From a virus (Duplodnaviria > Heunggongvirae > Uroviricota > Caudoviricetes): 31,860 nucleotides of DNA. This document shows positions 409 through 17,197 of the stretch, one piece after another. The position numbers were made by a program, and so were the translations under genes. How positions within the stretch are numbered: position 1 is the stretch's first letter; every line of letters begins with the position of its first letter. The stretch is taken from IMG/VR virus record IMGVR_UViG_2778261226_000007; one strand, 5' to 3'. Below the pieces are notes generated by a model. That model made no database searches and was not told where the DNA came from. It worked only from the letters and a program-made list of their open reading frames with translations.

Positions 409-764
409 CAGTGAGTGACCTCTTCAAAGGTACAGTTAAAATCGGTATACATGGCATTATCCGAAATGCTCCACTCCCTGCAGACAACCCGGACAGTCCT
501 GTTGTGTTTTGGCGGGCGCCACAAAAAAGCACGAATCCCGGCATGACGGGATAAAAAACTGTCCAGCGCGGCACGGGAGTATTCATCTGTGACACGAAAT
601 ACCGGTTTAAACGTTTTCAGATCCGCATTCAGCCCACCAGCCCGTCGCTGTTCATATCCGTCACCAAACTTTACCGTAATAACTGATGGCTTTCGTGTCG
701 TCTCCATCCCCTCACGGGGGATCCAGTTAAAAACTTCAGGCTCAGGCACTGTATAATCCTCCAT
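408..764 (-). CDS. M: Minor tail protein, lambda M-like
   Basis: ORF 408..794. The motif VKFGDGYEQRRAGGLNADLKTF resembles lambda gpM (VRFGDGYSQRAPAGLNANLKTY). Position is between tape measure and L. The start was chosen at MEDYTV and is uncertain. Confidence 0.7.
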   Translation of the reverse strand: MEDYTVPEPEVFNWIPREGMETTRKPSVITVKFGDGYEQRRAGGLNADLKTFKPVFRVTDEYSRAALDSFLSRHAGIRAFLWRPPKHNRTVRVVCREWSISDNAMYTDFNCTFEEVTH

Positions 765-3700
765 CCCGACGCGATGACTGCATAATTGACACAACCCTGC
801 TGTCGATCAGATCCACCAGTCCCCTGGCTGAGCGCGTATCTATCTCGCCATTGCTCCCTTGATTCTGAATGCTAATGTGATACACGGGAGAATAAACAAA
901 TCCACCGCCACCATTCACATTGCCAATGGCTCTGACCCCAAGAGAGCCGTCCGCTGCCCGTGTCAGTGGCATGATAGCTTCAGGCCCGGCCTCGCCCATC
1001 AGCCCGGCACCTTTCGCAAAAGCAAAATACGTCGGTGTATCCACAATAGTGTTACTGTAAGCACTCAGATTTGCCGATGTGTAAACACCACCTTTTGCGT
1101 TTGCCACCGCCCCCGAAATCCATCCGCCGACCGTACCAAGCCACCCTCCGGCACCGGAGAGTGACTTCAGTCCGTTAACAATGGCCGCATTCATCAGAAT
1201 TTTTGAAACTTCCCGGAGAACTGAACTCCCCCAGTTCCTCCACTCCACAACATTCCCGGCCAGTGCATCGGAAATATTTGATACCAGCCCGTCCATCGTG
1301 GAAACAACAGCATCTGCCGCCTGTGAAGCATAATCGGTGGCACTGTCTGCCCAGTTGGTCAGTCCCTCCTGGAGTCCGGCATTCCAGTTATTACGTAAAG
1401 CATCGGCCTTTGCATAATAATCCTGCTGATCGCTGAGACGCTCTTCCAGATATTTTTTATTCAGTTCTTTCTCCTGTTTCCACAGGGCTTCTTCAATTTC
1501 TCCGGCCTGATACTGTCTCAGCAGCTCGTTATTTTTCTGCTCAAACTCATGCCGGATACTCCACATTTCCTGGAGTCGTTCACGCATCCGTGAGCCTTCA
1601 CCATATCCCAGCAACTGCGCGTCGTCAGATGCCCGGGCACTGGCATTACTGTCCGCCAGACTGCTTTCATACGCGGCAAGCTGCTCACGAATCTTTTTCT
1701 GGTCGATGAGTGCTGCATTCTGCAAAAGCGTTTTTTTCTGCGCTTCTGACAGGGTTGATAATTCGCCCTGACTGACCTGATATTTCATCTTAGCCAGTTC
1801 AGTATTCTGCCCTGCCAGTGCTATCTGTTCTTTTTGCTGTTTAATCAGCCGTTTATAAATATCTTCTGTTTTTTCCGCTTCGGTCTTTTTATGCGCTTTG
1901 GGTTTATTTGCCTGGTTATTTCGCCAGGCATCCAGTGAGTTATTGATATAATTCTGTCTGGCTGTCCGATACGCCTCTCCCACAAAGCCGAGATCATCCG
2001 CAGCATAGCCCAGTCGGGCACGCTCACGCGCTTCCCCCTTAAGGCGGGACAGAGCCAGTTCGCGCTTGCTGTTATTCAGTGCGGTCTGCTGTTTATCATC
2101 CAGAGTTGCCTGTGGTAGCCGTAACGGTACATTCACCAGCCCCTGTCGCTGCTGAAGTAATTCATTACCAAGCCCGAGAAGGCGATTAAACTCGGTATGC
2201 TTCCCATTCATGATCAACAGGGACTGATACGCTTTGTTTTGTTCCGCTGCCTGTTGACGGATCAACGCCACTCGTCGCTCCTCCAGCCCGGCAAGCACAT
2301 CCTGAATGGATTGCGCTTTGCCCTGCATTTGTGTGAGACGGGACTGTTCAACTGCCAGTTGATTTGTTGCTTCTGCAAGCCCTTTAAGGATGATTTCAGC
2401 ACCAGAACCACTCTGCGAACTTTCATCAAGCCAACGTTGATAATCAGCAATTTGATTTTTCAGTCCGCGAATTTTTCCTTCCTGTTCGTTAATCAGGCGA
2501 TTTTGTTCCTCCAGTGCCTGCCGCGTCTTTTCCTCATTATCTGACGCTTCAGGAAGCGACATTGCCGACGTTTTCTGACGAATTTCGTCGATTGTTGCGG
2601 CATACTGGCGTGCAGATTCTCTGGCCTGCTCCTGATTCTGATACATCGTGTACCAGGCCGTCGCCCCCAGCATGACGAGTCCCGGCACACCACCAACCAG
2701 CCCCAGCGCACCACTTAATAAACGACTCCCCACTGACGTGACAGTATTCAGCGTTGTCTGTGCTGCTGTTCTGGCCGCAATATTACGGGTAAGTGATGCC
2801 TGGGCAGCAGCCAGTTTCGCTTCTGCGGCTGCCTGTCTTTCAGTACCACGGGTAGCCGCGACCGCCTGTTGCGCACGATAAACCGCCGCACGCGCCCTGG
2901 CGGTTGCTATCTGCGTCCCCCGGAGCTGCGCTTCCGCAAGAGCTACTTCGTTTCTGGCTGCAGTAATTAATCCGGCAGTTGCAGATCCAGCAGAAGATGC
3001 CATATTGCCAAAATATCGGGCTACCCCGACGGCAACCAGAGCACCGGCAGCGGTTGCCACAGTGTCAATATTGCCTGCAATACCATTCAGCACACCGGAG
3101 AGCGTCTTCGTCACTCCGCTTGCTTCGTTCGCACCACCAACCCAGGCCATAAAGGCGTTTTCAACTTTGGTTGCAGAGGATGAAACCGTATCAGGCATTG
3201 CTGCATATTCATCACGCAACGCCCCAAGCTGACTAATCAGTGCAGGAACAACCTTATCGGCGGTCAACTTTCCGTTATCCGCCATGGCCTTCAGATCCTT
3301 ACGGGCAACACCCATTCCCGCAGCCAGCGCACGAATAACACGATCGCCGTTCTCATTCACAGAGTTAAATTCTTCACCGCGCAGCACTCCCTGCGCCAGT
3401 GCCTGACTGAACTGCGTGATCACCGAACTGGCTTCTGCTGCACTGGCACCGGATAATTTCAGGCCCGTGGAGATAGCCTCGGTGACTTTCAGTACCTCCT
3501 CAGAACTGTAGCCATACTCCCGCATGGAAGCTGCAGAGCGGGCAAAAAGGCTGGCGTTATCAGAAAACGCCGTTCCCGTTCTCTGGCTGATTGCCATTAA
3601 TTCACGTTGTGATACCTGAAAATCATCAGTGGACTGTGAGGCCTGCTTCAGACGGGCATTTACTGAATTCCACTCATCGGCGAGAGAAATAAGATGACCG

Positions 3701-3942
3701 GTAGCAAAAGCCCCGGCAAATGCCCCCGCCATATTCAGTGCCGAAGATTTAGCTGTATTTATCTGATCCGTCACTTCTGCCAGTGCACGCCGCATTTCAC
3801 GGGATGCAGCAGCGGACTGCCGGCCTCCGTTCTGCATGGTACGGTAGTAATCCTGCCCCATACGCGAAGCCCGGGAGATCTCTGACTGGAATGACCGGGA
3901 ATTTGCCGAGATTTTAATAATCAGCTCACGTAATGTCGCCAT
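742..3942 (-). CDS. Tail tape measure protein
   Basis: 1066-aa Ala/Gln-rich coiled-coil protein with central hydrophobic Gly/Ala stretches, located after the G/T chaperones as in lambda H. Confidence 0.9.
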   Translation of the reverse strand: MATLRELIIKISANSRSFQSEISRASRMGQDYYRTMQNGGRQSAAASREMRRALAEVTDQINTAKSSALNMAGAFAGAFATGHLISLADEWNSVNARLKQASQSTDDFQVSQRELMAISQRTGTAFSDNASLFARSAASMREYGYSSEEVLKVTEAISTGLKLSGASAAEASSVITQFSQALAQGVLRGEEFNSVNENGDRVIRALAAGMGVARKDLKAMADNGKLTADKVVPALISQLGALRDEYAAMPDTVSSSATKVENAFMAWVGGANEASGVTKTLSGVLNGIAGNIDTVATAAGALVAVGVARYFGNMASSAGSATAGLITAARNEVALAEAQLRGTQIATARARAAVYRAQQAVAATRGTERQAAAEAKLAAAQASLTRNIAARTAAQTTLNTVTSVGSRLLSGALGLVGGVPGLVMLGATAWYTMYQNQEQARESARQYAATIDEIRQKTSAMSLPEASDNEEKTRQALEEQNRLINEQEGKIRGLKNQIADYQRWLDESSQSGSGAEIILKGLAEATNQLAVEQSRLTQMQGKAQSIQDVLAGLEERRVALIRQQAAEQNKAYQSLLIMNGKHTEFNRLLGLGNELLQQRQGLVNVPLRLPQATLDDKQQTALNNSKRELALSRLKGEARERARLGYAADDLGFVGEAYRTARQNYINNSLDAWRNNQANKPKAHKKTEAEKTEDIYKRLIKQQKEQIALAGQNTELAKMKYQVSQGELSTLSEAQKKTLLQNAALIDQKKIREQLAAYESSLADSNASARASDDAQLLGYGEGSRMRERLQEMWSIRHEFEQKNNELLRQYQAGEIEEALWKQEKELNKKYLEERLSDQQDYYAKADALRNNWNAGLQEGLTNWADSATDYASQAADAVVSTMDGLVSNISDALAGNVVEWRNWGSSVLREVSKILMNAAIVNGLKSLSGAGGWLGTVGGWISGAVANAKGGVYTSANLSAYSNTIVDTPTYFAFAKGAGLMGEAGPEAIMPLTRAADGSLGVRAIGNVNGGGGFVYSPVYHISIQNQGSNGEIDTRSARGLVDLIDSRVVSIMQSSRRDGGLYSA

Positions 3943-3955
3943 TTACTTTACCCCA

Positions 3956-3981
3956 TAAAAAAACCGCTTCTGCGGTTTTTT
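3956..3981 (-). terminator. Intrinsic terminator, bidirectional in shape
   Basis: Stem AACCGC, loop TTCT, stem GCGGTT, flanked by an A-run and a T-run. On the minus strand the hairpin is followed by T7, directly after the lipoprotein moron. Confidence 0.6.
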
Positions 3982-3991
3982 AAGATGATAA

Positions 3992-4333
3992 TTATTGGCA
4001 AAACAACTTATATTTTTCCATACTGCTTGGATCATGATCATTAACAATTGTTACAGTCCCATGACTCTTAACTTTTCCATCCACAACTTCCAAATAAACA
4101 AAATATGGCTTTTTCCCTGTATATCCACCAAACGTGTTTTTTGAATTAACATCACCACAAACATAACCATATAAATCACCTGACTTATGAAAAAAAGAAT
4201 TAAATTTTGCACTATCAGGATCAATAAGCTTATCTTTAACTAAGTTTTCCCCTAAAGAAATAACATAATTATCTGATGGCTTACATGCACTAATAAAAAA
4301 CAAACAAGCTAATGTCACCACTGATTTTCTCAT
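3992..4333 (-). CDS. Small secreted lipoprotein (moron), function unknown
   Basis: Start at MRKSVVTLACLFFISAC with lipobox ISAC and Lys at +2. AGGAGG lies 7 nt upstream. The segment is visibly AT-rich and inserted between the T and tape measure genes, with its own terminator. Confidence 0.7.
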   Translation of the reverse strand: MRKSVVTLACLFFISACKPSDNYVISLGENLVKDKLIDPDSAKFNSFFHKSGDLYGYVCGDVNSKNTFGGYTGKKPYFVYLEVVDGKVKSHGTVTIVNDHDPSSMEKYKLFCQ

Positions 4334-4391
4334 GATTAATCCTCCTGACTTTGAGTAAAGCATTCAATTTCAAAACGATTAAAAAATTATC

Positions 4392-4682
4392 TTATAGTGA
4401 AGACATTAGAGCAACCTCTAATCCAATAAATGGATCATCGCATTTATTTTCTTCTGATTCATGCTCCCACTGAAGAAGCGCATCATTCAGTGGTACTTTG
4501 ACACCCTGCGCACCGTAAACAGCTGAAACAATCTGGGCAGCCCGGATATCAGCCCGTTCGTCCCCCAGCGGGCTGAACCTGTCAAATTCTGCCCACATCA
4601 TGATTTCTGATGCGGACATTTCCCGGCGTAACTCTGACAATGTGCGCCCCATCCTGAGTGCCAGCATCATCAGAAAACGCAT
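4392..4682 (-). CDS. Tail assembly chaperone, T-like part, probably made only as a G-T fusion by -1 frameshift
   Basis: This frame is open from 4703 downward and is the -1 frame relative to the G-like ORF. Position matches lambda T. Confidence 0.7.
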   Translation of the reverse strand: MRFLMMLALRMGRTLSELRREMSASEIMMWAEFDRFSPLGDERADIRAAQIVSAVYGAQGVKVPLNDALLQWEHESEENKCDDPFIGLEVALMSSL

Positions 4683-4693
4683 CCCCGGAAGCG

Positions 4694-5080
4694 CTACTTT
4701 TTTTTAACCTCGCCGGCATCACTGATCAGTTCCAGAGACTGCCGAAGAAGCCGCGCATGCACCGGGCCATACACGGCAATCACCTGTTCACGATCATCCT
4801 CTGAAAATACAGGTTGCAGTCCGGTATCACACAGAACATCAATGAACAGTTCAACATCTGCCTCCAGATTTCGGCGGGCGCGCTCCGCAACGGATAACGG
4901 TGTCTCATCATCTTTTGCTTTAACGATCTCCTGCCAGCGCAACCAGGCTTCTGCAGAAGGTTCCCGTAATACAACCGTTGCCCCTTCCCATTCAGGCACA
5001 TCAACAGTTTTATGGCGAAACCCCGACATCGTTGCCAGAGCCAGATTACGGATATTTTTAGTCATCACACCCATCCTCAT
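4694..5080 (-). CDS. Tail assembly chaperone, G-like
   Basis: 128-aa acidic protein between the major tail protein and the tape measure. It ends in a slippery A-run. Its ATG overlaps the stop of the tail tube gene (TAATG). Confidence 0.75.
   Translation of the reverse strand: MRMGVMTKNIRNLALATMSGFRHKTVDVPEWEGATVVLREPSAEAWLRWQEIVKAKDDETPLSVAERARRNLEADVELFIDVLCDTGLQPVFSEDDREQVIAVYGPVHARLLRQSLELISDAGEVKKK
4697..4705 (-). other. Programmed -1 ribosomal frameshift slippery run
   Basis: Minus strand reads GTT AAA AAA AAG TAG at the end of the G-like ORF. Slipping -1 on the A-run continues as K-V-A-L-P-G-M-R-F-L... into ORF 4392..4682. Confidence 0.7.
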
Positions 5081-15892: not shown

Positions 15893-16274
15893 TGCCGCCT
15901 CCTCCACCCCGCAGGCGGGAGAACAGGCCGGACACCAGCGATGCAATATCCTGCTGGTGGATGAACGAGAGAATCTTCACCGACACCACGGCCACCAGCA
16001 CCGCACACAGTGCATCCGCCGATGTACCGTCATAACCTGTTTTTGATGCAATCCAGGCTGACAGCACATGCGCACCCAGCACGCCAACGATAAACGACAC
16101 CAGAAAATGCGCCGCCACACGCCAGGCTGAAAGCGCCTGCGGCATCGTTGCCACAAATAACGCCCCAGCGAACGCCCCAAACACAATCCCGAAATCCGTT
16201 CCGGTAAACAGCCCGAATACCGTCGCCCCGCCGAGCGCCGCAGCCGTACCGGAACCGGACAAGGGTTCAGACAT
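15882..16274 (-). CDS. Holin-like / holin-accessory membrane protein
   Basis: Start at MSEPLSGSG with AGGAGA upstream. Gly/Ala-rich TM segments. First gene of the lysis cassette. Confidence 0.55.
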   Translation of the reverse strand: MSEPLSGSGTAAALGGATVFGLFTGTDFGIVFGAFAGALFVATMPQALSAWRVAAHFLVSFIVGVLGAHVLSAWIASKTGYDGTSADALCAVLVAVVSVKILSFIHQQDIASLVSGLFSRLRGGGGGNVK

Positions 16275-16292
16275 ACTTTTTCTCCTGTAAAT

Positions 16293-16316
16293 AAAAAAGG
16301 GCCACTGTCGGCCCGT
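16293..16316 (-). terminator. Intrinsic terminator just upstream of the lysis cassette
   Basis: Minus strand: GGGCC, loop GACAGT, GGCCC, followed by T6. Confidence 0.6.
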
Positions 16317-16404
16317 AAAAAAACAACACCCCGTCAAAGGCACCCGCAGATACCTTTTGTGTGGTGTTATCTGATGTGATGTGCGCCGGACGTGGCGCGG
16401 ATAT

Positions 16405-16429
16405 AAAAAAGGCCCGCCGCAGCGAGCCT
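16405..16429 (-). terminator. Intrinsic terminator after the AraC-family gene
   Basis: Minus strand: AGGCTCGCTGCGGCGGGCC imperfect hairpin followed by T6. Confidence 0.5.
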
Positions 16430-16453
16430 GTTTTCAATGAGTGCAAAATTCAA

Positions 16454-17197
16454 TTATTCTTGAGTAACACTTAAACTCATCTCATTGAATGCAGCCATCC
16501 TGTAACCTGCCGGTGTAACACCAAAATAACTCCTGAATACGCTGATAAAATAAGATGTAAAATTATAGCCACACTGAGCAGCGATTCTGTTGATGGCGCA
16601 ACGAGATTGATTCAACAGCATTGCTGCCATTCTCATTCTCTCTGTAAGCAACAACTCACTGAAACAGGTGCCTTCTTCTTTCAGTCTTTTTTTTAACAAA
16701 CTTTCACTGATACATAACCGCGAAGACACATCTCTCAGAGTCCAGTTTGCTGCAATGTCCGTACGAAACAATGCACTAAGCCTGTCACTAATATTGCCAA
16801 TACACGCGGTCAGAAACGACGAAAACATTTTCTCTGATGAGAAAAACGCCAGACACGAAAAGGAAAGCATTTCCGCTAAATTGTCCGTATGAATCTTTTC
16901 CTCACAAAGATAATCAATCAGGATGCCCATCAATTCTGCCTTGGGAAAACTCACGCAAAGATATCGTGGTATTTGCCGGACTAAAACTACATCCTGTTTT
17001 TCGTCTCCACACAACAGGTAACGGATAATTGTCGATTCACTGAGACTTATTCGCCGAAAACATTCCGAAAAGGGCAATAACGATCCAGCTCCCCCCCTGA
17101 CAAGAAGTGCACTACCACTTTCCAGAGAGAGCTCTTTTCCTTCAAAGAGCACAACAAACGGGGAATGAACAAAAACAACAGAACAAGCTTCATTCAT
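16454..17197 (-). CDS. AraC/XylS-family transcriptional regulator (moron)
   Basis: C-terminal double HTH (WTLRDVSSRLCISESLLKKRLKEEG...INRIAAQCGYNFTSYFISVFRSYFGVTPAGYR). AT-rich relative to its flanks. The first ATG is M21 of the track ORF, whose own start is TTG. Confidence 0.85.
   Translation of the reverse strand: MNEACSVVFVHSPFVVLFEGKELSLESGSALLVRGGAGSLLPFSECFRRISLSESTIIRYLLCGDEKQDVVLVRQIPRYLCVSFPKAELMGILIDYLCEEKIHTDNLAEMLSFSCLAFFSSEKMFSSFLTACIGNISDRLSALFRTDIAANWTLRDVSSRLCISESLLKKRLKEEGTCFSELLLTERMRMAAMLLNQSRCAINRIAAQCGYNFTSYFISVFRSYFGVTPAGYRMAAFNEMSLSVTQE

What the first reader, a model, noticed from the sequence alone, without database searches (positions are those of the whole stretch)
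3956..4391. Lipoprotein moron inserted between the tail chaperone and tape measure genes
A strongly AT-rich ~430-bp insert carries one gene with an AGGAGG SD and a lipobox (FISAC, Lys at +2, so likely outer-membrane sorting). It has its own terminator immediately before the tape measure start. Lipoproteins encoded in or next to tail modules of siphophages (Cor of phi80/N15, Llp of T5) block the phage's own receptor. This one is in an unusual position, inside the G/T-H block.
Basis: partly seen in the sequence, partly recalled or inferred. Interest (0 to 1): 0.5.

Follow-up and report, generated by a model that had tools for sequence, protein, structure and literature searches.

The report
Lipoprotein moron beside the tape-measure gene
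An E. coli prophage carries an extra, AT-rich gene for a small outer-membrane lipoprotein of unknown function in the classic "moron" slot just before its tail tape-measure gene; it is a real gene from a large unstudied family that may help a lysogen keep out other phages, but nothing here tests that.

Summary
A 113-aa gene (4333..3992) has an AGGAGG Shine-Dalgarno, the lipobox ISAC (Cys17, Lys at +2) and a perfect 10-bp hairpin plus U-run before the tape-measure ATG (3942). GC is 0.30 against about 0.5 in the flanks.

Of 903 complete E. coli genomes with this tail module, 18 carry the gene; the rest I sampled have an empty site. Mature-domain dN/dS is 0.05-0.08, so the gene is under purifying selection.

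- **Position:** it is not unusual. It is the slot of HK97 gene 15, the first named moron and a superinfection-exclusion gene, and of ES18 genes 18-20.
- **Terminator:** it is not the insert's own. Empty-site relatives have the same hairpin.

The protein is not related to Cor or Llp. It belongs to a large unannotated family of exported proteins (DPxSAxF...CGxVNAKNxxGGYxG...C, a conserved Cys pair, cystatin/NTF2-like model). Of the 80 closest viral-contig relatives, at least 71 lie in siphophage tail operons and 52 next to the tape-measure gene. The gene does not track the receptor-binding end of J.

Most likely it is an envelope-acting moron, possibly for exclusion, with an unproven mechanism. 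It is a new member of a known kind.

The parts
3992..4333 (-). Lipoprotein gene, 113 aa including a 16-aa signal peptide. The mature protein starts at lipidated Cys17 and is 97 aa. RefSeq lists it as WP_071605788.1, hypothetical protein.
   Evidence: ORF and translation. RefSeq annotation. phrog_2320 at 2e-33, with no Pfam, NCBIfam or PADLOC match. dN/dS of the mature part 0.045-0.084. AF2 model with pLDDT 87.
4283..4333 (-). Signal peptide plus lipobox (MRKSVVTLACLFFISA|C). The Cys17 codon is 4285-4283 and is followed by Lys at +2.
   Evidence: Read directly from the sequence. Cys17 is invariant and A16 nearly so in the homologue alignment. 82 of 149 family representatives have a lipobox by pattern.
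4341..4346 (-). Shine-Dalgarno AGGAGG, 7 nt upstream of the ATG.
4334..4391 (-). 58-bp leader between the T stop codon and the lipoprotein ATG. It has no consensus promoter. The only candidate is a weak TTGCTC-17-GATAAT that overlaps the end of T and runs just upstream into it.
   Evidence: The promoter scan found nothing on the minus strand here. Manual reading; the candidate is conserved in L008 but not in the Citrobacter or L009 loci.
3957..3981 (-). Intrinsic-terminator-like hairpin AAAAAACCGC-AGAA-GCGGUUUUUU plus U, 15 nt before the tape-measure start.
   Evidence: An equivalent hairpin is present in empty-site Evi and in all orthologous loci. HK97 has an annotated terminator at the same place.
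3943..4448 (-). Full AT-rich mosaic segment that differs from empty-site relatives. It comprises the last ~19 codons of T, the leader, the lipoprotein gene, the hairpin and the tape-measure leader.
   Evidence: BLAST breakpoints against phage Evi, sequence comparison and composition.
4392..4682 (-). Tail assembly protein T reading frame (Pfam Phage_tail_T), made as a G-T fusion by a -1 frameshift at A AAA AAG near 4697-4705.
4694..5080 (-). Tail assembly chaperone G (Pfam Phage_TAC_1).
742..3942 (-). Tail tape-measure protein, 1066 aa, HK97 type.

Best explanation
This is a genuine moron: an accessory cassette in the canonical T|H slot of an HK97-type tail operon, in a lambdoid prophage integrated next to mlrA in E. 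coli.

**The product (predicted).** It encodes a small lipoprotein. After Lgt/Lsp processing at Cys17 and Lol sorting (Lys at +2), the protein should hang from the inner leaflet of the outer membrane into the periplasm. It would be a compact domain of about 95 residues (helix, four strands, helix) held by one disulfide between Cys59 and Cys112.

**How it got here (inferred from sequence comparison).** The cassette was not transposed in. It arrived by recombination with a related phage that already had the T-lipoprotein-H arrangement. One junction lies inside T at about 4449 and the other at the H start codon.

**When it is expressed (inferred).** In lytic growth it should be transcribed with the Q-antiterminated late operon. 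Whether it is also made from the repressed prophage is not shown.

**What it does (inferred by analogy).** The most likely role is an envelope-level block against incoming phages, either in the lysogen or late in infection. I favour a periplasmic step, such as the tail-tip/tape-measure conduit or the periplasmic face of an outer-membrane protein, over surface masking.

**My confidence by layer.** Real, selected moron encoding an exported lipoprotein: about 0.9. Its function is phage exclusion: about 0.4.
For: **Extra DNA in a polymorphic site.**
- 903 of 5426 complete E. coli genomes hold the G/T-H module and only 18 hold the insert.
- 11 phage records have the empty site.

**A real gene under selection.**
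- Mature-domain dN/dS is 0.045 and 0.084 against the two closest alleles.
- Orthologues at 58-86% identity sit in the same slot in Citrobacter and metagenomic prophages. They have diverged about as much as the flanking G, T and H genes, and remain at GC 0.30-0.36.

**Export.**
- The lipobox is conserved.
- The Cys59/Cys112 pair is conserved in 95-98% of 124 family representatives.
- One family member is fused to a peptidoglycan-binding SPOR domain.

**Precedents for slot and function.**
- HK97 gp15 occupies the same slot and excludes phages at the DNA-entry step (PMC3594210).
- In relatives the T|H slot holds three other unrelated lipoproteins, a gp15 homologue and a membrane/zinc-ribbon protein.
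- Lipoproteins encoded in the structural cluster of mEpimmI phages exclude phages experimentally (PMC11893012).
- Llp shows that a periplasmic outer-membrane lipoprotein can block infection (PMC9586334).

**Family position.** Of the 80 best IMG/VR loci, 32 are T|H, 5 are ES18-type GT|H, 11 are unidentified|H, 19 are K|I and 4 are H|M.
Against: - There is no functional datum for any family member. Every database name is 'hypothetical', and there is no PADLOC, Pfam or NCBIfam match.
- No consensus promoter lies upstream, so prophage expression, which is needed for classical exclusion, is unproven.
- The family signature is conserved from enterobacterial to Mycobacterium and Gordonia phages. That fits a universal envelope target or a purely structural motif better than a specific receptor.
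- The low dN/dS is not what an arms-race interface would typically show.
- Tail-operon slots may simply be permissive sites, so position alone says little about function.
Confidence: 0.45

Rival explanations
1. It is a lysogenic-conversion or host-fitness factor unrelated to phage exclusion. The periplasmic lipoprotein would protect the envelope, for example as an inhibitor or immunity protein against an exogenous or periplasmic hydrolase, colicin, lysozyme or type VI effector, or as a Bor-like resistance factor.
For: - The family is very broad, with 1986 clusters. It has members outside obvious prophages, such as the Rouxiella chromosomal locus.
- It occurs across phyla with very different envelopes and has an invariant loop motif. 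Together these suggest a common, non-phage-specific ligand.
- One member is fused to SPOR.
Against: - Among the closest 80 viral-contig relatives, at least 71 are inside tail operons, which is a strikingly phage-specific location.
- No known inhibitor motif was identified.
Confidence: 0.3
2. It is a Cor/Llp-type receptor blocker. The lipoprotein would bind the periplasmic face of the phage's own outer-membrane receptor and make it unusable. This would prevent superinfection and stop progeny being lost on cell debris.
For: - It is of the same general kind: a small outer-membrane lipoprotein with one disulfide, encoded in a siphophage tail region (Llp and Cor described in PMC9586334).
- Co-transcription with the late operon would suit lytic conversion.
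Against: - There is no homology to Cor. hhalign aligns only the signal peptide, probability 39%, and the two fall in different PHROGs.
- Cor and Llp genes lie beside the receptor-binding gene. This gene lies beside the tape-measure gene, about 5.6 kb from J.
- The mature protein differs at 3 residues between prophages whose J C-terminal 250 aa are only 57-66% identical.
- Orthologues at 58% identity sit in phages with a different tail-tip module.
- The J C-terminus type of this prophage is common in Stx and other phages that lack the gene.
Confidence: 0.15
3. It is a late-cycle helper with no role in the lysogen. It would be made only from the antiterminated late transcript and would act in the periplasm during morphogenesis or lysis, for example by modulating peptidoglycan or the timing of envelope disruption.
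For: - No recognisable promoter of its own was found.
- It sits in the late operon of a prophage that has a Q antiterminator.
- There is no terminator between T and the gene.
- One relative is fused to SPOR.
Against: - About 98% of E. coli prophages with this tail module do without it, so it is dispensable for morphogenesis and lysis.
- The lysis cassette is elsewhere and complete.
- Its AT-rich foreign composition and patchy distribution are typical of accessory genes.
Confidence: 0.1

Closest known systems
HK97 gp15 moron (YebO-like inner-membrane superinfection-exclusion protein)
   Same: It occupies exactly the same slot, between the G/G-T chaperone genes and the tape-measure gene. It is likewise followed by a hairpin terminator whose 3' side and H leader resemble those here. 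It is a small envelope protein with a strong Shine-Dalgarno, is absent from close relatives, and is the archetype of the moron concept.
   Different: The proteins are unrelated. gp15 is a 62-aa single-pass inner-membrane protein in phrog_5031. This one is a 113-aa lipoprotein predicted to go to the outer membrane, in phrog_2320. Exclusion by gp15 is shown experimentally; nothing is shown here.
ES18 gp20 ('possible moron; function unknown')
   Same: It is a distant homologue: 41% identity over residues 18-81 with the same motifs. It has a lipobox, lies immediately upstream of the tape-measure gene and is followed by an annotated terminator.
   Different: It is longer (151 aa, with an insertion after the lipobox). 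It lies in a different chaperone/tape-measure family and shares the slot with two further morons, gp18 and gp19.
Cor (phi80, N15, T1, HK022) and Llp (T5) exclusion lipoproteins
   Same: They are small phage-encoded outer-membrane lipoproteins with an internal disulfide. Llp at least acts from the periplasmic side.
   Different: There is no sequence or fold similarity. Cor and Llp are 60-80 aa and are encoded beside the receptor-binding protein gene. This gene lies beside the tape-measure gene and is not coupled to the J C-terminus.
Lpp lipoproteins of mEpimmI coliphages (Lpp021, Lpp010)
   Same: They are lipoproteins encoded inside the structural gene cluster of temperate coliphages. When expressed from a plasmid they exclude the cognate phages.
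   Different: tblastn with the protein against the phage collection returned no record from these phages at E <= 1e-3. I did not check their exact position in the cluster.
Lambda Bor and other lysogenic-conversion lipoproteins
   Same: They are prophage-encoded outer-membrane lipoproteins that benefit the host (cited in PMC3594210).
   Different: bor lies near the lysis genes rather than in the tail operon. No Pfam match of any kind was found for this protein.

Membership tests
Moron (Juhala/Hendrix sense) | Extra DNA relative to otherwise closely related phage genomes | tested here: met
   Flanks match at 97-98% in 11 phages and most of 903 E. coli prophages, but the segment is present in only 18.
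Moron (Juhala/Hendrix sense) | Base composition different from the surrounding genes | tested here: met
   GC 0.30 against 0.48-0.52. The same contrast holds in all orthologous loci.
Moron (Juhala/Hendrix sense) | Own promoter allowing expression from the repressed prophage | tested here: inconclusive
   No consensus sigma-70 site lies upstream on the coding strand. There is only a weak TTGCTC-17-GATAAT, which is not conserved in the more distant orthologous loci.
Moron (Juhala/Hendrix sense) | Own terminator | tested here: inconclusive
   A strong hairpin plus U-run follows the gene. The same element is present at empty sites, so it was not brought in by the cassette.
Bacterial lipoprotein (Lgt/Lsp/Lol substrate) | Positively charged n-region, hydrophobic h-region and lipobox [LVI][ASTVI][GAS]C | tested here: met
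   MRK / SVVTLACLFF / ISAC. Cys17 is invariant in the alignment.
Bacterial lipoprotein (Lgt/Lsp/Lol substrate) | Outer-membrane sorting, meaning no Asp at +2 | tested here: met
   Lys18 is at +2, and CKPS is conserved in the close homologues. This is rule-based only; localisation was not measured.
Bacterial lipoprotein (Lgt/Lsp/Lol substrate) | Actual lipidation and membrane localisation | not testable with these tools
   Needs globomycin or palmitate labelling and membrane fractionation.
Cor superinfection-exclusion family (phrog_1119) | Sequence homology to Cor | tested here: not met
   hhalign against N15 Cor aligns only 22 signal-peptide columns, probability 39%. Cor matches phrog_1119 and this protein matches phrog_2320.
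Cor superinfection-exclusion family (phrog_1119) | Gene located beside the receptor-binding tail-tip or fibre genes | tested here: not met
   In N15, cor follows genes 21-23. Here the gene lies between T and H, about 5.6 kb from J.
T5 Llp family | Sequence or fold similarity to Llp | tested here: not met
HK97 gp15 / YebO family | Homology to gp15 | tested here: not met
   gp15 matches phrog_5031 only and this protein matches phrog_2320. The architectures differ: a transmembrane helix versus a lipoprotein.
HK97 gp15 / YebO family | Location between the chaperone G/T genes and the tape-measure gene | tested here: met
phrog_2320 / unnamed 'DPxSAxF...CGxVNAKNxxGGYxG...C' exported-protein family | Signature motifs and the conserved Cys pair | tested here: met
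   phrog_2320 at 2e-33. Invariant columns. Across 124 representatives D38, P39, S41, F44, C59, N63, K65, N66, G69, Y71, G73 and C112 are each at least 0.94 conserved. 1986 clusters match at E <= 1e-3.
Cystatin / NTF2-like (VirB8-like) fold | A helix packed on a curved antiparallel sheet, with significant structural matches | tested here: inconclusive

The most novel reading that the evidence does not exclude
The protein is the founding example of a widespread, unrecognised class of periplasmic exclusion lipoproteins that travel with the tape-measure gene. They would act not on the receptor but on the periplasmic DNA-delivery step, meaning the conduit formed by the tape-measure protein and tail tip as it crosses peptidoglycan. 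This would make them an outer-membrane-anchored counterpart of HK97 gp15. It would explain why family members sit next to tape-measure genes in several different tail types and why the gene does not track the J receptor-binding domain.
Probability: 0.2. Interest if true: 0.7.

Novelty: new member of a known kind. Interest (0 to 1): 0.4.

Why it matters
Prophage morons in tail operons are a proven source of envelope-level anti-phage functions such as HK97 gp15, Cor, P-FimU and the mEpimmI Lpp proteins. This one belongs to a very large family: 1986 clusters at 50% identity, and more than 470 viral-contig loci. The family has no Pfam entry, no name and no experiment, yet among its closest relatives it is strongly tied to the tape-measure neighbourhood.

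A simple plasmid-expression and plating experiment could give the whole family a function. If the block proves to be at DNA entry rather than adsorption, it would provide a handle on the poorly understood periplasmic stage of siphophage genome delivery.

For this particular locus the finding is ordinary: a classic moron in the classic slot.

Tried and rejected
**Database and structure searches that found nothing useful**
- Pfam, NCBIfam and PADLOC scans of the protein and of ten distant relatives gave no family match for this domain.
- A PDB sequence search with the family profile gave only noise, E >= 0.47.
- BFVD returned only uncharacterised phage lipoproteins.
- An Rfam scan of 3800-4600 gave only sub-threshold noise. 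The isrK hit at 17.6 bits, against a gathering score of 50, lies over the terminator hairpin.

**Ideas rejected**
- Transposition. There are no flanking direct or inverted repeats.
- A structural tail role. The signal peptide and lipobox are conserved, and about 98% of E. coli prophages with the same tail module lack the gene.
- Inferring the receptor. The J C-terminus is 94% identical to that of VT1-Sakai-type Stx phages and 46% to lambda J, with no receptor assignment available.

**Other dead ends**
- Looking for the low-GC donor of the cassette. All orthologous loci recovered are in about 50% GC enterobacterial prophages, so no donor was identified.
- Three literature searches found no paper on this family.
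- The tool's terminator scan missed the hairpin. I think this is because the stem extends into the A/T runs, so I checked it by folding.

Full report
**1. What is in the sequence**

All genes in this part of the window run on the minus strand. Tail chaperone G lies at 5080..4694 (Pfam Phage_TAC_1). The T frame lies at 4682..4392 (Phage_tail_T) and is reached by a -1 frameshift at A AAA AAG. The 1066-aa HK97-type tape-measure gene lies at 3942..742.

Between T and the tape-measure gene is a 449-bp gap with GC 0.30, against 0.48-0.52 for the flanking genes. The gap holds one gene:
- Shine-Dalgarno AGGAGG at 4346-4341.
- ATG at 4333, TAA at 3994-3992, 113 aa.
- N-terminus MRKSVVTLACLFFISAC|KPSD, which is a standard lipoprotein signal peptide with lipobox ISAC, Cys17 and Lys at +2.

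A perfect 10-bp hairpin with a 4-nt loop and a 7-U tail occupies 3981-3957, 15 nt before the tape-measure ATG. It folds at -15.3 kcal/mol, and none of 200 shuffles folds as well.

**2. It is a presence/absence polymorphism and a selected gene**

The window is 100% identical to a prophage next to mlrA in E. coli E21845/O/A. That prophage is lambdoid, with a Q antiterminator and an HK97-like head and tail.
- Of 5426 complete E. coli genomes, 903 carry this G/T-H module and only 18 carry the insert. Eleven are at >=99% identity and seven at 92.8%.
- Nearly all the other records sampled, and 11 sequenced phages such as Evi and phi467, match both flanks at 97-98% across a site about 400 bp shorter.
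- Nei-Gojobori dN/dS for the mature domain is 0.045 against the 92.8% allele and 0.084 against an 86%-identical metagenomic orthologue. The reading frame is under strong purifying selection.

**3. How it got there**

Homology to the empty-site phage Evi breaks at 3942 and 4449, so 507 bp here replace 104 bp there. The foreign stretch includes the last ~19 codons of T. These still encode the conserved C-terminal motif (DPFIGLEVAL here, DPFAGLENAL in Evi) but use AT-rich codons.

There are no flanking repeats. The cassette therefore arrived by recombination with a relative that already had the order T-lipoprotein-H, not by insertion of a free element. I did not find the low-GC donor.

**4. The terminator is not the cassette's own**

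- Evi, which has no insert, carries AACCGC-TTCG-GCGGTTTTTTTT between T and H.
- The Citrobacter orthologous locus carries that same hairpin after its lipoprotein gene.
- HK97 has an annotated terminator in the same place, with a similar T-run and H leader.

The hairpin is a resident feature of the T-H junction. In a Q-antiterminated late operon it would be read through.

**5. The position is the classic one, not an unusual one**

[quoted passage not shown] ES18 has three annotated 'possible morons' (genes 18-20) in the same slot, and gp20 is a distant homologue of the present protein.

I surveyed 90 loci recovered with a T-protein profile, 10 from genomes of other Enterobacterales and 80 from viral contigs. 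A tape-measure gene could be placed in 84 of them.
- 67 of the 84 had an essentially empty T-H junction.
- Six viral contigs carried this lipoprotein.
- Three unrelated lipoproteins occupied the slot elsewhere: one in Serratia and Symbiopectobacterium, one in Kosakonia (phrog_890 'lipoprotein'), and one in Pectobacterium.
- Other occupants were a gp15 homologue (Klebsiella spallanzanii), a membrane/zinc-ribbon protein (an Enterobacter species), a small signal-peptide protein (Candidatus Symbiopectobacterium endolongispinus) and another member of the present family (Brenneria).

Where I could identify the cargo it was a membrane or exported protein. In three further loci with long gaps I identified no cargo gene.

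**6. What the protein is**

It has no Pfam, NCBIfam or PADLOC match and matches only function-unknown PHROGs (phrog_2320, 2e-33).

An exhaustive HMMER search found 1986 clusters at 50% identity with E <= 1e-3.
- Those I looked up are all named 'hypothetical'.
- None of the ten I scanned has a Pfam match for this domain.
- They are mostly 100-150 aa, and 82 of 149 have a lipobox by pattern; several of the rest start with a hydrophobic N-terminal segment.

The family signature is L36-x-D-P-x-S-A-x-F44 ... V-C59-G-x-V-N-x-K-N-x-x-G-G-Y-x-G73 ... C112. Most of these positions, including the Cys pair, are conserved in 94-98% of 124 representatives. That fits a periplasmic disulfide.

**7. Where family members sit**

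Orthologues at 58-86% identity in Citrobacter and metagenomic prophages all lie in the T|H slot. They have diverged about as much as the flanking G, T and H proteins (for example 59% against 59, 56 and 55%) and remain at GC 0.32-0.36. Some of those phages have a different tail-tip module (DUF1833 type), so the gene travels with T and H rather than with the tip.

| Slot among the 80 best IMG/VR loci | Loci |
|---|---|
| T\|H | 32 |
| ES18-type GT\|H | 5 |
| Unidentified upstream gene \| tape measure | 11 |
| K\|I (as in phage Fraca and Pseudomonas AUS531phi) | 19 |
| H\|M (as in an Enterobacter prophage) | 4 |
| Unplaced | 9 |

At least 71 of 80 are therefore in siphophage tail operons and 52 abut the tape-measure gene. 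The sample is biased towards close relatives. More distant members also sit near the attachment site of a P2-like phage (SEN5) and near one end of the Mycobacterium abscessus prophage records.

**8. Test of the Cor/Llp idea**

- hhalign against N15 Cor aligns only the signal peptide, at 39% probability. Cor is phrog_1119.
- Llp, whose complex with FhuA is in the PDB, is absent from the profile's PDB matches at E <= 10 and from the structural hit lists.
- Cor and Llp are encoded next to the receptor-binding gene. This gene is about 5.6 kb from J.
- Among four insert-bearing E. coli prophages, the mature lipoprotein is identical or differs at 3 residues. The J C-terminal 250 aa of one of them (PK8241) are only 57-66% identical to the others.
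- The J C-terminus of this prophage is 94% identical to that of many Stx and related phages, while no phage record holds a relative of the lipoprotein closer than 55% identity.

The protein is not a member of either family. Coupling to a particular receptor-binding domain is not seen.

**9. Most likely function**

- **Shown or directly read:** an accessory cassette encoding a selected gene whose product has a lipoprotein signal, with predicted outer-membrane sorting.
- **Inferred:** it acts in the periplasm, and it is co-transcribed with the late operon.
- **Not shown:** expression in the lysogen. No consensus promoter was found; there is only a weak TTGCTC-17-GATAAT at the end of T.

By analogy I rate phage exclusion at the envelope as the single most likely role, at about 0.4. 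The analogies are:
- the experimentally characterised occupant of the same slot, gp15;
- the tail-cluster lipoproteins of mEpimmI phages that exclude phages (PMC11893012);
- P-FimU, encoded between the tail tube and chaperone genes (PMC12952977).

Within that role I favour a periplasmic step over masking of the phage's own receptor. A host-fitness or immunity role unrelated to phages is a serious rival, at about 0.3. The family signature is conserved far beyond enterobacteria, some members are not obviously prophage-borne, and the low dN/dS does not look like an arms-race interface.

**10. Verdict**

This is a new member of a known kind: a tail-operon moron encoding an envelope protein. It sits in the textbook slot and its terminator belongs to the junction. 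What lifts it above routine is that the protein belongs to a very large, unnamed and untested family that clusters around tape-measure genes. A simple expression and plating experiment could assign that family a function.

Noticed in passing
window 3957-3981; L001 (phage Evi) about 3555-3580; L011 6343-6386: A hairpin plus U-run sits between T and the tape-measure gene whether or not a moron is present. The stem ACCGC/GCGGT is shared, and the Evi and Citrobacter versions are identical. It may be a conserved regulatory or mRNA-stabilising element of the tail operon and a recombination joint for cassette exchange.
   Followed up: partly
window 4392-4448: The last ~19 codons of gene T are recoded with AT-rich codons while keeping the conserved DPFxGLExAL motif. 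One mosaic junction of the cassette therefore lies inside an essential tail gene.
   Followed up: partly
L019/L020, L022, L025, L028, L021 (T|H slot of Serratia, Symbiopectobacterium, Kosakonia, Pectobacterium, Klebsiella and Enterobacter prophages): The same slot holds at least three other unrelated lipoprotein genes (phrog_4487, phrog_890, phrog_7441), an HK97 gp15 homologue and a membrane/zinc-ribbon protein (phrog_8436). Every cargo gene I could identify encodes a membrane or exported protein.
   Followed up: partly
L002 (phage Fraca) 5001-5690: In Fraca the homologue (55% identity) lies in the K|I slot. A second, unrelated lipoprotein gene follows it 6 bp later (MKKIILPIFIFLLMGC..., phrog_914), giving a two-lipoprotein cassette.
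   Followed up: no
L005 (Pseudomonas phage AUS531phi) 4001-4654: A family member with a lipobox is fused to a C-terminal SPOR (septal peptidoglycan-binding) domain, in the K|I slot of a lambda-like tail operon.
   Followed up: partly
L015 6001-8215 (Enterobacter prophage): A family member lies immediately after the tape-measure gene. It is followed by three more inserted genes before gpM: one with an FtsK_gamma domain, one unknown, and one YafO-like toxin. This is a multi-gene moron island inside the tail operon.
   Followed up: no
window, L008, L009 and L011-L013: lipoprotein gene plus its flanking gap: The cassette stays at GC 0.30-0.36 in about 50% GC prophages even between orthologues only 58% identical. 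Its composition has not drifted towards that of the host over a long period, which suggests selection for AT-richness, for example through H-NS-type regulation.
   Followed up: no
L006 7685-9247 and 30501-30986 (the second corresponds to about window 16157-16642): In the source prophage the side tail fibre gene and an ORF6N-domain gene are annotated as truncated pseudogenes. The prophage may be partly decayed even though its head, tail and lysis genes look intact.
   Followed up: no
window 4697-4705 (minus strand): The slippery run A AAA AAA AG at the end of G gives the expected -1 frameshift into T. The G/G-T arrangement is canonical and the insert does not disturb it.
   Followed up: yes
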